Source of the DNA: a virus
Lineage: Duplodnaviria > Heunggongvirae > Uroviricota > Caudoviricetes
DNA: 8,078 nt
IMG/VR virus record: IMGVR_UViG_2563366974_000015
Direction: 5' to 3' (one strand)
Part shown: in pieces, positions 3,023-7,528 of the stretch
Layout: each line of letters begins with the position of its first letter
Numbering within the stretch: position 1 is the first letter of the stretch
Notes under the pieces: generated by a model
What the model was told of the DNA's origin: nothing
Seen by the model: only the letters and a program-made list of their open reading frames with translations
Database searches by the model: none
Position numbers and translations under genes: made by a program

Positions 3023-3032
3023 TGGAGTGGAT

Positions 3033-4619
3033 ATGGCAGCAGTAAAAATCTCAGGTGTGCTGAAAGATGGTGCGGGAAAACCAATACAGAACTGCACTAT
3101 TCAACTGAAGGCAAAGCGTAACAGCACCACGGTACTGGTGAACACGGTGGCCTCTGAAAATCCGGATGAAGCCGGGCGTTACAGCATGGATGTTGAGTAT
3201 GGTCAGTACAGCGTCACCCTGCTGGTTGAAGGTTTTCCGCCTTCACATGCCGGGACCATTACCGTCTATGAAGGTTCCAGACCAGGTACGCTGAATGATT
3301 TTCTCGGTGCCATGACGGAAGATGATGTCATGCCGGAGGCATTGCGTCGTTTTGAGGCAATGGTGGAAGAAGCGGCACGCAACGCCGAAGCCGCCTCTCA
3401 GAGCGCAGCAGCGGCAAAGAAATCCGAAACTGCAGCGGCATCATCGAAGAACGCGGCGAAAACCTCAGAAACAAATGCAGCTAACAGCGCACAGGCGGCA
3501 GCGTCCTCGCAGACTGCATCGGCAAACTCCGCGACAGCAGCCAAAAAATCAGAAACCAACGCGAAAAATAGCGAGACAGCCGCAAAGACGAGCGAAACCA
3601 ACGCAAAGTCCAGCCAGACGGCAGCGAAAACCAGCGAAACGAATGCCAAAGCCAGTGAAACTGCGGCAAAAAACAGCCAGGTTGCAGCAGCCCAAAGCGA
3701 GAGCGCGGCAGCCGGTTCTGTGACTTTAGCAGCTGGATCAGCAACTGCTGCGGCTAACAGCCAGAAAGCTGCGAAGACGAGTGAAACTAACGCAAAGTCC
3801 AGCCAGACGGCAGCGAAGACCAGCGAAACGAATGCCAAAGCCAGCGAAACTGCGGCGAAAAACAGTCAGGATGCAGCAGCCCAAAGCGAGAGTGCTGCAG
3901 CCGGTTCTGCAAGCGCGGCGGCTGCTTCTGCCACTGCATCAGCCAACAGTCAAAAAGCAGCAAAAACCAGTGAAACCAACGCAAAGGTGAGCGAAACAGC
4001 GGCTGCGAACTCAGCGAAAGCATCGGCAGCAAGCCAGACGGCAGCTAAAGCAAGCGAAGATGCAGCCAGAGAGTACGCAAGCCAGGCTGCGGAGCCGTAT
4101 AAATATGTCTTACAGCCGCTGCCTGATGTGTGGATACCATTTAACGATTCACTGGATATGATTACGGGCTTTTTGCCATCATATAAAAAGATTGTTATTG
4201 GTGACGACGAAATAACGATGCCTGGCGACAAGATTGTTAAGTTTAAACGTGCATCGAAAGCAACCTATATTAACAAATCTGGTGTGCTGACAGAGGCTGC
4301 CATTGATGAGCCACGATTTGAACGTGATGGCCTGCTTATTGAGGGGCAAAGAACTAATCTTCTGCTTAATTCAACAAATCCATCTAAATGGAATAAGTCA
4401 GGCAATCTGGAACTCACAGAAATATCCACGGATTCTTTTAATTTTACTTATGGCAGATTTACTGTACAAGATTCGCTTATTGGTACGAGAAAAGCGATTA
4501 ACATCGTCAGGCTGTCTTCGAGTACAGGGGGGGATGTTACTTGTGATGAAGAAAAGGAGGTCACTATATGCTGTGGAATAAAAAGTGAAGAAGATAATAG
4601 GGGCGGTTGTATTTTATAA
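3033..4619 (+). CDS. stf: Side tail fibre protein Stf: lambda-like N-terminal attachment domain plus fibre repeats; C-terminal part appears truncated or disrupted
   Basis: ATG 3033 is preceded by GGAG at 3024-3027; the ORF track begins at an in-frame GTG at 3027. The N-terminus MAAVKISGVLKDGAGKPIQNCTIQLKAKRNSTTVLVNTVASENPDEAGRYSMDVEYGQYSV closely matches lambda Stf as remembered. The central region is Ala/Ser/Thr-rich with SETNAK-type repeats. The ORF ends at TAA 4617-4619, but the same frame reopens after a second stop (TAG 4632-4634). Confidence 0.8.
   Translation: MAAVKISGVLKDGAGKPIQNCTIQLKAKRNSTTVLVNTVASENPDEAGRYSMDVEYGQYSVTLLVEGFPPSHAGTITVYEGSRPGTLNDFLGAMTEDDVMPEALRRFEAMVEEAARNAEAASQSAAAAKKSETAAASSKNAAKTSETNAANSAQAAASSQTASANSATAAKKSETNAKNSETAAKTSETNAKSSQTAAKTSETNAKASETAAKNSQVAAAQSESAAAGSVTLAAGSATAAANSQKAAKTSETNAKSSQTAAKTSETNAKASETAAKNSQDAAAQSESAAAGSASAAAASATASANSQKAAKTSETNAKVSETAAANSAKASAASQTAAKASEDAAREYASQAAEPYKYVLQPLPDVWIPFNDSLDMITGFLPSYKKIVIGDDEITMPGDKIVKFKRASKATYINKSGVLTEAAIDEPRFERDGLLIEGQRTNLLLNSTNPSKWNKSGNLELTEISTDSFNFTYGRFTVQDSLIGTRKAINIVRLSSSTGGDVTCDEEKEVTICCGIKSEEDNRGGCIL
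3582..3909 (+). repeat. In-frame tandem direct repeat inside stf (two 139-bp copies, 189-bp period)
   Basis: Copy 1 (3582-3720) and copy 2 (3771-3909) align base for base with about ten mismatches. Both encode AAKTSETNAKSSQTAAKTSETNAKASETAAKNSQ.AAAQSESAAAGS. Shorter SETNAK-type units recur from about 3400 to 4070. Confidence 0.85.
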
Positions 4620-4805
4620 GACCATGATGGTTAGGAGGTCAGGTTTTCAGTAGGTACTGCACGCATTAACTCAACAATTGTAATTGTTAGCAATAGAAGT
4701 GATGCAGGCCGTGTTATAGCAAAGTCTGTTAAAGATGATGTAACTGGCTGGATATTTTTTGAGGCTACAATAAATGCACATAAAACAGAAAACACGGTTG
4801 GTGGG

Positions 4806-5411
4806 ATGGTTCAGTACGCTCCTGTAAAAGGTTCAGGTACAGCATCTGGAGACTATCTGGATATCGCAACTCCACAAGTGGAAGGTGGATCAAGTGCTTC
4901 GTCATTTATTGTAACTGATATAACTGCAAGCACTCGCGCAAGCGATATGGTGACAGTCCCAATCAAGAATAACCTTTATAATCTTCCTTTTACGGTTCTT
5001 TGTGAGGTACATAAGAACTGGTATAAAACGCCAAATGCAGCACCGCGTGTTTTTGATACCGGCGGTCATCAAACCGGAGCGGCTATTATTCTTGGCTTCG
5101 GTCGTTCAACAGATTACGACGGATTTCCTTATTGTGATATAGGTTTGGCTAACAGACGGGTAAACGAAAACGCATCGCTTGAAAAAATGGTTATGGGGAT
5201 GCGTGTAAAGTCAGATCAGTCTACGTGCTCAGTAAGTAACGGGCGTATATCCAGCGAAAAGAAAGCCACATGGTCCTATATTCAGAACTCCGCAATTATC
5301 CGTATTGGAGGCCAGACTACAGCCGGGTTGCGTCATTTATTTGGTCATGTCAGGAATTTCAGAATATGGCACAAGGCATTGACTGATGCTCAGATGGGGG
5401 AGTCAATCTAA
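4806..5411 (+). CDS. LamG/concanavalin-A-like domain protein; probably the detached C-terminal receptor-binding part of the tail fibre
   Basis: 201-aa ORF from ATG 4806, but the same frame is stop-free back to 4635 with no canonical start codon in that stretch, and it is the stf frame. The C-terminal signature IRIGGQTTAGLRHLFGHVRNFRIWHKALTDAQM is typical of LamG-like jelly-roll lectin domains. The ribosome-binding site at 4806 is weak (GGTTGGTGGG directly abutting the ATG). Low-GC region. Confidence 0.5.
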   Translation: MVQYAPVKGSGTASGDYLDIATPQVEGGSSASSFIVTDITASTRASDMVTVPIKNNLYNLPFTVLCEVHKNWYKTPNAAPRVFDTGGHQTGAAIILGFGRSTDYDGFPYCDIGLANRRVNENASLEKMVMGMRVKSDQSTCSVSNGRISSEKKATWSYIQNSAIIRIGGQTTAGLRHLFGHVRNFRIWHKALTDAQMGESI

Positions 5412-5692
5412 TGAAAGATTTAACACTCAAATTTGCAGACAGGGCCGACTTTTCGGCCTTTATGGATAGCATTGGCTATTATGATGACGAGTCGATGCAG
5501 GATGATATTCTTATTGACGTGATAGGTAACGTGTACAAAGAAACCGGAGAACTGACTGAAGATGGCGAACCGGTATGTGTTAAGGAAGATGGATATTTTG
5601 TAAACGTGCGCATCATTAATGATGCAAAAAAATCGTTAATATTCGATGAATACGCGGTTGTAGTTGAACATCAACTTCGTGGCTGGATGTGA
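5411..5692 (+). CDS. Hypothetical small acidic protein (93 aa); possible tip-specific assembly factor
   Basis: The start overlaps the upstream stop by one base (TAATG at 5409-5413), suggesting translational coupling. Acidic composition (many D/E). No family recognised. Confidence 0.55.
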   Translation: MKDLTLKFADRADFSAFMDSIGYYDDESMQDDILIDVIGNVYKETGELTEDGEPVCVKEDGYFVNVRIINDAKKSLIFDEYAVVVEHQLRGWM

Positions 5693-5701
5693 GGGAGACA
5701 A

Positions 5702-6406
5702 ATGGCTACATCGACAGTAATTCCAGGAGACATCACCACGTTAAAGGGAGATGTCAGTAAAGCCAAGGAAGATATTTCCTCAATTAACGGAAAAGTATCA
5801 ACGCTTCAGGCTGATATGACCAGTGCAAAGCAGGATATCAGCACCAGATACACAAAAACTGAAGTTGATAATAAGCTGAAAAACAAACTGGAAGTGAACG
5901 CTCTGGAAAGCGGTCGTTATGGTGGAGATTTTTACCCGTTGACTGGCCGTGAAGCGTTTTATTTGTGGGGATTGGGCACGACTACAGCGGCGGCAAACCT
6001 TTATCTTAATCCTGACCCCGCAATTTCGTCTGTGCTGCGGTCAACATCGTCTATCCGCTATAAACATTCAGTAGAGACAATAGATTCAGAGCACGCCGAT
6101 CTCATTTTCAGGATGCGCCCTGTGTGGTACAGGTCACAATGCGAAAATGACAGGCGTGACTGGGGATTCTACGGATTGATTGCCGAGGAAGTAGGAGAAA
6201 TTGCCCCTCAGTTTGTACACTGGCGACCAGCTAACGAAGATGATGCACCGGAAGCTATTTCCAGCAATGGCCTTGTTGCCGAAGGTGTAATGTACGAACG
6301 TCTGGTTGTTCCACTGATTCACCATATCCAGAAGCTGACTGAAAGAGTTGATGAACTTGAGTCAGAATTAAAGTTGTTATCCGTTTCCCGAAGCGATATC
6401 GGATAA
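5702..6406 (+). CDS. Short tail-fibre-like protein: N-terminal coiled-coil segment plus C-terminal intramolecular chaperone (peptidase S74-like) domain
   Basis: Shine-Dalgarno GAGGGAG at 5691-5697 precedes ATG 5702. Candidate catalytic Ser-x-x-Arg-x-Lys motif SSIRYK (residues 116-121, nt 6047-6064), followed by WGFYGLIAEEVGEIAPQFVHW and GLVAEGVMYERLVVPLIHHIQKLTERVDELESEL, which match the conserved blocks of self-cleaving C-terminal chaperone domains of phage fibres and spikes (endosialidase / T5 L-shaped fibre type). The N-terminal region has heptad-like spacing. Confidence 0.72.
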   Translation: MATSTVIPGDITTLKGDVSKAKEDISSINGKVSTLQADMTSAKQDISTRYTKTEVDNKLKNKLEVNALESGRYGGDFYPLTGREAFYLWGLGTTTAAANLYLNPDPAISSVLRSTSSIRYKHSVETIDSEHADLIFRMRPVWYRSQCENDRRDWGFYGLIAEEVGEIAPQFVHWRPANEDDAPEAISSNGLVAEGVMYERLVVPLIHHIQKLTERVDELESELKLLSVSRSDIG

Positions 6407-6416
6407 AGGAGGAGTA

Positions 6417-6710
6417 ATGGATATAACACCTTTCCTTCATGCGCTTTGTGCTGTGGCTGCGCAGCTACTGATTGGTCTTTTTACCGGGAACTGGGCTTAC
6501 GGGGCGATAGCTGGTTGTACGTTCTTCATTGCGCGTGAACACACCCAGGCAGAATATCGCTGGATTGAAATGTTCGGGCATGGCAAGCGAATGAATATGC
6601 CGTGGTGGGGCGGTTTTGATCCGCGCGCGTGGGATGTGGCAAGCCTGATGGATTTTGCTGTGCCGGTGGTGGCGTGTCTGCTGGTCTGGCTGTTGGTTAA
6701 TCGTGGGTGA
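6417..6710 (+). CDS. Hypothetical small inner-membrane protein (97 aa, 2-3 predicted transmembrane segments)
   Basis: Strong Shine-Dalgarno AGGAGGAG at 6407-6414 before ATG 6417. Hydrophobic stretches FLHALCAVAAQLLIGLFTGNWAYGAIAGCTFFIA and LMDFAVPVVACLLVWLLV flank a charged loop. GC content is higher than in the upstream cassette. Confidence 0.55.
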   Translation: MDITPFLHALCAVAAQLLIGLFTGNWAYGAIAGCTFFIAREHTQAEYRWIEMFGHGKRMNMPWWGGFDPRAWDVASLMDFAVPVVACLLVWLLVNRG

Positions 6711-6720
6711 AAAAAGGTGA

Positions 6721-6840
6721 GCTGTATATGCAACGGAGGAAGAAACCTCGTTGCTGGAAGCCTGGAAGAAGTATCGGGTGTTGCTGAACCGTGTTGATAC
6801 GTCAACTGCACAGGATATTGAATGGCCAGCACTGCCGTAG
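6721..6840 (+). pseudogene. tfa: 3' remnant of the tail fibre assembly gene tfa (last ~39 codons, no start codon)
   Basis: The frame opens just after TGA 6718-6720 and reads [39 protein letters not shown], ending at TAG 6838-6840. This matches the conserved C-terminal end of lambda-type Tfa proteins as I recall it. No upstream coding sequence or start codon is present. Confidence 0.7.
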
Positions 6841-6937
6841 GGTAAAACATATAAATTCTATAATTAGATGTATCTTTCCATTTACGGCAAGGAAGGGGGC
6901 TTGGAAGACGTAAAGCATCTCACACCGAGATTATTTT

Positions 6938-7528
6938 TTATATGTCAGGTGTCTGAAGTTTTGCTTTGGCTCTTAAAATGGTTTGCCGCGAGGTTTTGAA
7001 TTCCCGGGCAATGGCACTTATACTTACACCTGACTTAATTCGTTCGAATACCACCTGTTTCTGTTCTTCATTTAACACAGGTGGTCGACCAAAACGTTTC
7101 CCTGCGCCGCTGGCTCTTACTATCCCGGAATGAGTGCGTTCAAGTAAAAGGTCTCGTTCAAATTCAGCGACTGCTGAAATTACGTGCATCATCATTTTTC
7201 CTGTTGGACTGGTCAGGTCAATGCCCCCCAATGCTAAGCAATGCACTCTGATACCTGTTTCGGTCAGTTGTTCCACTGTTTTCCTGATATCCATTGCATT
7301 ACAACCAAGGCGATCCAGTTTTGTCACAATCAATTGATCACCACATTTCAGGCGAGCAAGCAACCGGTTAAAACCAGGACGCTCACTGGTTGCTGCTGAG
7401 CCGCTAATGTGTTCTTCGATTATTTGCTGAGGTTTGATTTTAAAACCTGCACTTTCGATTTCCCGGCGTTGATTTTCGGTGGTCTGATCCAGCGTTGATA
7501 TCCGACAGTAAGCAAAAATTCGAGACAT
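6938..7528 (-). CDS. pin: Serine recombinase of the DNA-invertase/resolvase family (Pin-type, as found beside tail-fibre genes in Rac/Qin prophages)
   Basis: 196-aa ORF with N-terminal catalytic-serine motif [13 protein letters not shown], the KLDRLG motif and a C-terminal helix-turn-helix ([19 protein letters not shown]). Length and sequence match my recollection of PinR/PinQ. It is convergent with the fibre genes and adjacent to the tfa remnant. Confidence 0.88.

What the first reader, a model, noticed from the sequence alone, without database searches (positions are those of the whole stretch)
5411..5692. Translationally coupled 93-aa acidic protein: candidate tip-specific chaperone or adaptor
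Its start overlaps the stop of the LamG-like ORF (TAATG), implying stoichiometric co-expression. It sits where a tail-fibre assembly chaperone would normally lie, but it lacks the conserved Tfa C-terminus, which survives only as a remnant at 6721-6840. It may be a non-canonical assembly factor for the LamG-like tip.
Basis: inference. Interest (0 to 1): 0.4.

Follow-up and report, generated by a model that had tools for sequence, protein, structure and literature searches.

The report
Overlooked small partner of two-part tail fibre
The 93-residue acidic protein is a real, conserved but uncharacterised phage gene that always sits between the two genes of a two-part lateral tail fibre, so it is most likely an accessory or joint protein of that fibre and not a classical tail-fibre chaperone.

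Summary
The ORF at 5411-5692 is real. It has 93 aa, pI 4.2 and its own Shine-Dalgarno. Its ATG overlaps the upstream stop (TAATG), and dN/dS is about 0.24. It matches PHROG 1361 (function unknown) over its full length. It has no Pfam, NCBIfam, PADLOC or PDB match.

In all 99 related loci with upstream DNA, it directly follows a fibre gene ending in the same LamG/galectin-like domain. These loci include lambdoid and N15-like prophages and T1-, T5-, rV5-, Dhillonvirus- and Nonagvirus-type phages.

The next ORF (5702-6406) is a distal fibre whose roughly 26-residue N-terminal anchor never occurred without the small gene upstream (115 of 115 sites).

Among prophages, the stf 3' end, the small gene and the anchor form one conserved island between two variable cassettes. 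The small protein follows the anchor more closely than the tip (rho 0.77 against 0.36).

Best reading: an accessory or joint protein of a proximal-plus-distal fibre. A pure tip chaperone is not excluded.

In this window stf carries two in-frame stops, so the "LamG-like ORF" is a pseudogene fragment.

Moderately interesting. It is a new class of a known kind.

The parts
3027..5411 (+). stf, the proximal (side/lateral) tail-fibre gene. It has an N-terminal PF08400 domain, Ala-rich repeats and a C-terminal LamG/galectin-like region. In this window it is a pseudogene, with in-frame stops at 4617-4619 and 4632-4634.
   Evidence: Pfam phage_tail_N scores E 5e-67. The two ORF pieces match PHROG 1419 at profile positions 1-518 and 590-793 of 793. 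The gene is an intact 792 aa in S88. The stops were seen.
4806..5411 (+). C-terminal LamG/galectin-like 'tip' of stf.
   Evidence: PHROG 1419 and PHROG 5939 match its C-terminus. Laminin_G_3 matches at E 0.027, below the cut-off. It is 71% identical to the C-terminus of IrisVonRoten Gp22, for which PMC11990801 predicts a galectin-like domain. tblastn finds it in 205 phage records.
5396..5402 (+). Shine-Dalgarno (GGGGGAG) of the small gene, encoded by the conserved C-terminal 'MGE' codons of stf.
   Evidence: Read directly from the sequence. Equivalent purine-rich motifs occur in the ten phage loci read.
5411..5692 (+). The finding itself: the gene for a 93-aa acidic protein, a member of PHROG 1361.
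   Evidence: The AF2 model has pLDDT 83.9 and an alpha/beta fold.
5371..5760 (+). Conserved island: the last ~13 codons of stf, the whole small gene, a 9-nt spacer and the first ~20 codons of the distal fibre gene. Variable cassettes flank it on both sides.
   Evidence: Mean pairwise nucleotide identity is 0.84-0.98 inside the island and 0.35-0.7 outside it, over 61 unique prophage loci.
5702..6406 (+). Distal fibre gene (234 aa). It has an N-terminal anchor, a coiled coil and a Peptidase_S74 intramolecular chaperone domain at residues 116-172.
   Evidence: Pfam PF13884 scores E 4.4e-6, above its cut-off. PHROG 3299 matches its C-terminus at E 1.5e-140.
5702..5779 (+). N-terminal anchor of the distal fibre, about 26 aa (MATSTVIPGDITTLKGDVSKAKEDIS). 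The motif is T.T.IP.DI..LK.
   Evidence: The anchor is conserved across prophages and T1-, T5-, Dhillonvirus- and Nonagvirus-type phages in front of unrelated fibre bodies. In 115 of 115 IMG/VR sites it is preceded by the small gene. In fibres without the small gene, homology starts only at residue 27-49.
6417..6710 (+). Gene for a 97-aa predicted membrane protein (PHROG 1443), the usual fourth gene of the module.
   Evidence: PHROG match at E 5.8e-59. It is present downstream in most prophage loci. In mEp460, ev243 and 1H12 it follows the small gene directly.
6721..6840 (+). Remnant of a classical tail fibre assembly gene (tfa); only the C-terminal 39 codons remain.
   Evidence: Translation and the S88 annotation.
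6938..7528 (-). Pin/Hin-type DNA invertase. No matching inverted repeats are left.
   Evidence: Pfam Resolvase plus HTH_7. No inverted repeat of 16 nt or more that would define an invertible segment was found.

Best explanation
The 93-aa protein is the dedicated small accessory subunit of a two-part lateral tail fibre. That fibre consists of a proximal fibre (Stf/LtfA-like) ending in a LamG/galectin-like domain, and a distal fibre that carries its own S74 folding domain.

**Proposed mechanism**
- The small protein is made from the same transcript as the proximal fibre, by coupled translation (shown: overlap and Shine-Dalgarno).
- It associates with the C-terminal end of the proximal fibre (inferred).
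- It forms, or helps to form, the joint onto which the distal fibre's conserved ~26-residue N-terminal anchor docks (inferred).
- The tip domain to its left and the distal fibre body to its right are exchangeable receptor-binding cassettes. The small protein and the anchor are the constant parts of the joint.
- In lineages without a distal fibre (the mEp460, ev243 and 1H12 lambdoids, and rV5-like phages), only the interaction with the tip remains.

Whether the protein stays in the virion (adaptor or knee-cap) or leaves after assembly (matchmaker) is not known.
For: **Real gene under selection.** It matches PHROG 1361 over its full length, and dN/dS is 0.24.

**Fixed position.** In 99 of 99 loci the upstream fibre's stop overlaps the small gene's start by 4 nt (55 loci) or 1 nt (41), or abuts it (3). 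In 94 of 96 loci the next gene starts 6-12 nt after the small gene's stop.

**One operon.** No promoter-like or terminator-like site lies between these genes on the + strand.

**Always with the tip.** Co-occurrence holds across prophages and at least five phage groups.

**Anchor and small gene go together.**
- The distal fibre's anchor motif was preceded by the small gene at 115 of 115 IMG/VR sites.
- The first 26 residues of the distal fibre are conserved only in phages with the triad. Related fibres in DT57C-type, Wifcevirus and Gordonclarkvirinae phages align only from residue 27-49.

**Co-variation.** The small protein's identity follows the anchor (Spearman 0.77), not the tip (0.36).

**Conserved island.** Window positions 5371-5760 are conserved between two variable cassettes.

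**Published context.** For the homologous locus of phage IrisVonRoten, the published model has Gp24 (distal) attached to Gp22 (proximal, with a galectin-like end). It does not account for Gp23, the small protein's homologue (PMC11990801).

**Who needs help folding.** The distal fibre has its own intramolecular chaperone, so it needs no separate folding factor.
Against: - No physical evidence of any interaction exists.
- Co-folding could not be run.
- The small gene is kept intact, including its C-terminal P-x-R-x-W motif, in active lambdoid phages that lack a distal fibre. Its function therefore cannot be only distal-fibre attachment.
- The co-variation and the island could reflect lineage history, or where recombination breakpoints fall, and not protein contact. 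The loci are not phylogenetically independent, and most are E. coli prophages.
- Virion mass spectrometry of mar004NP2 detected the proximal fibre but not the small protein. It also missed the distal fibre, so the result is inconclusive.
- Other two-part fibres, such as DT57C LtfA/LtfB, join without any small protein.
Confidence: 0.45

Rival explanations
1. It is a pure folding or trimerisation chaperone for the LamG/galectin-like C-terminal domain of the proximal fibre. On this view it is a functional analogue of Tfa, gp38 or gp57A from an unrelated family. It is absent from the virion and has no role in docking the distal fibre.
For: - It co-occurs strictly with the tip, also where no distal fibre exists.
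- It lies in the position usually held by tfa, while the classical tfa here is only a remnant.
- It is small and acidic.
- It was not detected in the mar004NP2 virion proteome, in which the proximal fibre was detected.
Against: - Its sequence does not co-vary with the tip, and tips are swapped freely beside an almost unchanged small gene. This is unlike chaperones that recognise a specific fibre tip.
- LamG/ConA-like jelly rolls generally fold without dedicated chaperones (general knowledge, not tested here).
- The proteome was too shallow to count as evidence, since the distal fibre was also missed.
Confidence: 0.3
2. It has a function unrelated to fibre assembly, for example a regulator, an anti-defence protein or a protein acting on the host. 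It merely rides in the conserved stretch between two recombining cassettes.
For: No family or fold assignment links it to any fibre function. Small unrelated genes do occur next to tail-fibre genes in lambdoid phages.
Against: - Unrelated accessory genes are not normally kept at one fixed, translationally coupled position between the same two structural genes.
- Here that position holds in virulent T1-, T5- and rV5-like phages as well as in prophages.
- There is no PADLOC hit.
- It has no promoter of its own.
Confidence: 0.12
3. It is not a functional gene in this genome. Because stf is interrupted here, the whole fibre module of this cryptic prophage, the small gene included, is a decaying relic.
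For: stf carries two in-frame stops inside a patch with a random-like substitution pattern. The tfa gene is a remnant, and the invertase has no substrate repeats.
Against: The small gene, the tip and the distal gene are identical or nearly identical to those of S88, with 0, 1 and 0 differences respectively. The family is under purifying selection. This rival concerns only present-day expression, not what the protein is.
Confidence: 0.1

Closest known systems
Lambda Tfa / Mu gpU / P2 gpG tail fibre assembly proteins (Pfam Caudo_TAP)
   Same: The gene lies immediately downstream of a side-tail-fibre gene in a lambdoid prophage. It is co-transcribed and closely coupled with that gene. It is presumed to act on the fibre's C-terminal region.
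   Different: There is no sequence similarity (no Pfam hit at E <= 0.1). It is about half the size. A remnant of a true tfa lies separately at 6721-6840. The small protein does not co-vary with the fibre tip.
T4 gp35/gp36 hinge proteins, which join the proximal (gp34) and distal (gp37) half-fibres
   Same: The proposed role is the same: a small component encoded between the genes of a proximal and a distal fibre segment, forming the joint. The comparison rests on general knowledge of T4.
   Different: The proteins are unrelated in size, and no similarity was detected. The structural role is shown for T4 but only inferred here.
T4 gp57A and gp38 (fibre chaperones; gp38 is an adhesin in T2-type phages)
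   Same: They are small accessory proteins needed for, or attached to, fibre tips. gp57A is also small and acidic (general knowledge).
   Different: No sequence match was found. The AF2 model is a mixed alpha/beta sandwich, not a helical coiled coil.
IrisVonRoten (Bas32) Gp22 proximal fibre with galectin-like end, plus Gp24 T-shaped distal fibre (PMC11990801). Also AKFV33 ltpA/ltpB (PMC3326045) and mar004NP2 (PMC6563131).
   Same: It is the same three-gene module. The tip is 71-73% identical and the small protein 36-38%, and the distal fibre has the same N-terminal anchor.
   Different: In those phages the distal fibre is long (557-581 aa) and carries receptor-binding domains, whereas here it is a 234-aa stub. 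None of the three papers discusses the small protein.
DT57C LtfA/LtfB branched lateral fibre (PMC4728585, PMC10713586)
   Same: It is a two-protein lateral fibre in which the second protein attaches through the first.
   Different: DT57C LtfA ends in its own S74 domain, not a LamG domain. There is no small gene between the two fibre genes. The 26-residue anchor is absent, since homology starts at residue 27.

Membership tests
PHROG 1361 (phage protein family of unknown function) | Full-length match to the family profile | tested here: met
   E 3.6e-46, 156 bits, residues 1-93 against profile positions 1-92 of 92.
Tail fibre assembly proteins (Tfa/gpU/gpG, Pfam Caudo_TAP) | Sequence match to the family profile | tested here: not met
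   No Pfam family at E <= 0.1 and no NCBIfam hit.
Tail fibre assembly proteins (Tfa/gpU/gpG, Pfam Caudo_TAP) | Gene immediately downstream of the fibre gene it serves | tested here: met
   The start overlaps the stf stop. The same holds in 99 of 99 loci.
Tail fibre assembly proteins (Tfa/gpU/gpG, Pfam Caudo_TAP) | Required for fibre folding and binds the fibre's C-terminus | not testable with these tools
   This needs co-expression and solubility assays or a complex prediction.
Intramolecular chaperone of fibres and spikes (Peptidase_S74) | A PF13884 domain at the C-terminus of the fibre protein | tested here: not met
   The domain is absent from the 93-aa protein and from the stf tip. It is present in the next ORF at residues 116-172, E 4.4e-6, above the cut-off.
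Known solved folds of fibre chaperones or adaptors | Structural similarity of the AF2 model to a solved chaperone or adaptor | tested here: not met
Two-part lateral fibre of the Bas32 Gp22/Gp23/Gp24 type | Proximal fibre ending in the LamG/galectin-like domain, then the small gene, then a distal fibre with the T.T.IP.DI..LK anchor and an S74 domain | tested here: met
   All three genes are present in this order in the window and in Bas32. In the window, stf carries two stops.
LamG / ConA-like lectin fold (applies to the upstream tip, not to the 93-aa protein) | Pfam Laminin_G_3 match above the gathering score | tested here: inconclusive
   E 0.027, 15.1 bits against a cut-off of 27.6, covering only profile positions 100-149. 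PMC11990801 predicts a galectin-like domain for the 71%-identical Bas32 Gp22 end.
Anti-phage defence or anti-defence proteins | Match to a PADLOC model | tested here: not met
   0 families.

The most novel reading that the evidence does not exclude
The small protein is a structural knee-cap that stays in the virion. Together with the conserved C-terminal strand of the LamG domain and the 26-residue anchor, it forms a universal plug-and-socket joint. This joint lets siphoviruses, myoviruses and prophages of enterobacteria exchange both the proximal tip and whole distal fibres independently. It would be a third, so far unrecognised, component class of modular receptor-binding fibres.
Probability: 0.3. 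Interest if true: 0.6.

Novelty: new variant of a known kind. Interest (0 to 1): 0.42.

Why it matters
Lateral fibres of this type decide which O-antigens T5-like, T1-like and lambdoid phages can use. They are also prime targets for host-range engineering. Published models of the homologous fibres (Bas32, AKFV33, mar004NP2) consider only the two large proteins. If the small protein is needed to fold the tip or to attach the distal fibre, chimeric fibres built without it would fail. Its conserved island would then mark natural cut points for swapping cassettes. The family is present in thousands of E. coli genomes: several 93-aa clusters were each seen on 380-700 contigs.

Tried and rejected
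- **Sequence and profile searches.** PDB sequences, Pfam, NCBIfam and PADLOC gave nothing.
- **Literature names.** Searches for FIG00639828, ECP_1187, phrog_1361 and bas32_0023 found no papers.
- **Virion proteomics.**
  - For AKFV33 only 4 gel bands were analysed.
  - rV5 itself was not among the 41 phage records that carry the rV5-type small protein.
  - For mar004NP2 and swan01 the data are too shallow, since the distal fibre was also missed.
- **Long multi-repeat 'hits' in the representative search** (P0148, P0161, P0162). These are unrelated repeat proteins and were rejected.
- **An invertible-segment explanation.** I found no inverted repeats that would let the Pin-like invertase switch these genes.
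- **The odd stf patch.** An exact 41-mer from it has no match in IMG/VR or in GTDB genomes.

Full report
**Context.** The window is the right end of a lambdoid E. coli prophage. In order it holds the C-terminus of gpJ (7-2301), lom (2369-2968), the side-tail-fibre gene stf (3027-5411), the 93-aa ORF (5411-5692) and a 234-aa fibre-like ORF (5702-6406). These are followed by a 97-aa membrane ORF (6417-6710), a tfa remnant (6721-6840), a Pin-type invertase (6938-7528, minus strand) and ydfK. The window is colinear over all 8078 bases with E. coli S88 and APEC O1, at 98.0% identity.

**Observation.**
- A Shine-Dalgarno GGGGGAG lies 8 nt upstream of the ATG, inside the last codons of stf.
- The ORF is a real gene. 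It matches PHROG 1361 over its full length at E 3.6e-46.
- tblastn finds it in 179 phage records.
- 228 protein clusters, mostly from E. coli, match it. Several were each seen on 380-700 contigs.
- It is intact in all 100 loci examined.
- The median dN/dS is 0.24.
- The family is small and narrow, with only 48 representatives at 50% clustering among 1.8 billion proteins.

**Correction to the observation.**
- The 'LamG-like ORF' is the 3' part of stf. The 530-aa and 201-aa ORFs match PHROG 1419 at positions 1-518 and 590-793, and S88 has one intact 792-aa gene.
- In the window the frame is unbroken but carries TAA (4617-4619) and TAG (4632-4634).
- These stops lie in a patch (4455-4805) that differs from S88 at 109 of 376 positions, with no indel.
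  - The differences show no codon-position bias (30/40/39).
  - Transversions outnumber transitions, 78 to 31.
- A second patch (3940-4110) looks natural, with 18 of 20 differences at third positions.
- The small gene and the distal gene are identical to those of S88, and the tip differs at one base.

**What surrounds the small gene elsewhere.** I read annotated loci from several kinds of phage:
- an N15-like prophage (PhiR46_1)
- lambdoid phages (mEp460, ev243, 1H12, Lambda_4C10, IdasGreatGrand)
- Drexlerviridae (tinuso, G3B1, SECphi27, swan01)
- Dhillonvirus (KarlBarth)
- Nonagvirus (JenP2)
- T5-like phages (IrisVonRoten, FGS017, EC104, AKFV33, APCEc03, mar004NP2)
- rV5-like phages (EmilHeitz, LL12)

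I added 80 IMG/VR loci. The findings were:
- In all 99 loci with upstream DNA, a large fibre gene ends at the small gene's start. The overlap is 4 nt in 55 loci and 1 nt in 41, and the genes abut in 3.
- That upstream gene ends in a homologue of the 201-aa tip.
- The tip occurs in 205 phage records and the small protein in 179.
- I checked four of the tip records that were not among the small-protein records listed.
  - Two have a very divergent small ORF, at 24-27% identity.
  - One has an IS element inserted in the tip.
  - One (G3B1) has a normally conserved small ORF, at 53% identity.

**The third partner.**
- In 91 of the 96 loci with a downstream gene, that gene starts 6-12 nt after the small gene. 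It begins with M[AV]T.T[VNI]IP.DI[TK].LK, followed by unrelated bodies of 224-581 aa that end in an S74 intramolecular chaperone domain.
- A scan of IMG/VR for the anchor motif gave 115 sites with enough upstream DNA. All 115 have the small gene directly upstream.
- With the first 100 residues of IrisVonRoten Gp24 as query, residues 1-26 are matched only in phages that have the triad. In DT57C-type LtfA, Wifcevirus, LL5-type and Gordonclarkvirinae fibres the match begins at residue 27-49.
- The anchor is therefore a separate module that goes with the small gene.

**Who co-varies with whom.**
- Over 61 unique small-protein/tip pairs, the small protein's identity correlates weakly with the tip's (Spearman 0.36 overall, 0.43 for its C-terminal half). 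It correlates strongly with the anchor's (0.77).
- Two examples show this. In L015 the small protein is 97% identical and the tip 45%. In FGS017 the tip is 88% identical and the small protein 41%.
- A nucleotide conservation profile of 61 prophage loci shows an island of 0.84-0.98 identity from 5371 to 5760. It covers the last ~13 codons of stf, the small gene, the spacer and the first ~20 codons of the distal gene. The flanking cassettes are at 0.35-0.7.
- These figures are descriptive only. The loci are related, and the p-values are not meaningful.

**Exceptions.**
- mEp460, ev243 and 1H12 keep the small gene but lack the distal fibre. There the 97-aa membrane gene follows directly.
- In rV5-like phages the small protein is 110 aa, is homologous only over residues 1-77, and is followed by a hairpin and an unrelated gene.
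- The constant partner is therefore the tip, and the distal fibre is optional.

**Structure and homology.**
- AF2 with a 20-sequence alignment gives pLDDT 83.9 and pTM 0.70. The fold is a beta-alpha-alpha-beta4-alpha-beta sandwich, with a less confident C-terminal 25 residues.
- BFVD gives only uncharacterised small phage proteins.
- There is no Pfam, NCBIfam, PADLOC or PDB sequence match.

**Literature.**
- For IrisVonRoten, Humolli et al. 2025 (PMC11990801) predict that the T-shaped distal fibre Gp24 attaches to the proximal fibre Gp22. They report that Gp22 ends in a protruding galectin-like domain. Gp23, the small protein's homologue, is not discussed.
- Niu et al. 2012 named AKFV33 ORF137 and ORF135 ltpA and ltpB and passed over orf136.
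- Michniewski et al. 2019 detected the proximal fibre of mar004NP2 by mass spectrometry. They detected neither the small protein nor the distal fibre, so the negative result says little.
- DT57C LtfA/LtfB is a different two-part design without a small gene.

**Interpretation.**
- Shown: the gene is real, is coupled to the proximal fibre gene, always accompanies the LamG-type end, and is always present when the anchored distal fibre is present.
- Inferred: it binds the proximal fibre's end and forms or promotes the joint for the distal anchor (confidence 0.45).
- A tip-only chaperone remains a serious rival (0.3). It is favoured by the loci without a distal fibre and disfavoured by the lack of co-variation with the tip.
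- An unrelated function is unlikely given the fixed coupled position in six phage lineages (0.12).
- In this particular prophage the module may be inactive, because stf is interrupted.

**Verdict.** This is an ordinary member of an uncharacterised but widespread family. As a class it is a fibre accessory protein unrelated to Tfa, gp38, gp57A or S74 domains, and published fibre models have overlooked it. Interest is moderate.

Noticed in passing
window 4455-4805: This patch of stf differs from E. coli S88 at 109 of 376 bases, with no indel. It shows no third-position bias (30/40/39), has transversions outnumbering transitions 78 to 31, and carries two in-frame stops (4617-4619 and 4632-4634). 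The pattern looks like unselected random substitution, not a natural allele. A 41-mer from it has no exact match in IMG/VR or GTDB genomes. Its origin is unexplained; it could be local decay, an assembly error or an altered sequence.
   Followed up: partly
window 5702-6406: The distal fibre here is a stub. After the expected autocleavage before the S74 domain (near LRSTSS|IRYKH, about residue 115), only the anchor, a coiled coil and about 50 residues would remain. At the same site other prophages carry a 346-aa allele that shares only the first 27-32 residues.
   Followed up: partly
window 6417-6710: A 97-aa predicted membrane protein (PHROG 1443, function unknown) is the usual last gene of the module. 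In mEp460, ev243 and 1H12 it directly follows the small gene. It could be a prophage-expressed envelope or exclusion factor. It has no PADLOC or NCBIfam hit.
   Followed up: partly
window 6721-7528: A tfa C-terminal remnant lies next to an intact Pin/Hin-type invertase, but I found no inverted repeats of 16 nt or more that could define an invertible segment. This looks like the relic of a fibre-switching cassette that the LamG-type module displaced.
   Followed up: partly
window 5396-5411: The conserved C-terminal residues of stf (…QMGESI) are encoded by the same bases that form the Shine-Dalgarno of the small gene. Part of that protein conservation may therefore be a translational-signal constraint.
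   Followed up: partly
window 3940-4110: A second patch differs from S88 at 20 positions, 18 of them third codon positions. It lies in the Ala-rich SETNAK-type repeat region of stf and looks like a natural recombination tract.
   Followed up: no
L093 (Lambda_4C10) 3450-6140: An IS element with three 'mobile element protein' genes is inserted in the tip-coding end of the fibre gene, separating it from the small gene.
   Followed up: no
phage collection records such as MG065655 (Campylobacter phage C2) and OR848352 (Listeria phage LM 4-14-1): Records labelled as Campylobacter or Listeria phages carry rV5-like or T5-like coliphage fibre modules that are nearly identical to those of E. coli phages. 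They are probably mislabelled or contaminant sequences.
   Followed up: no
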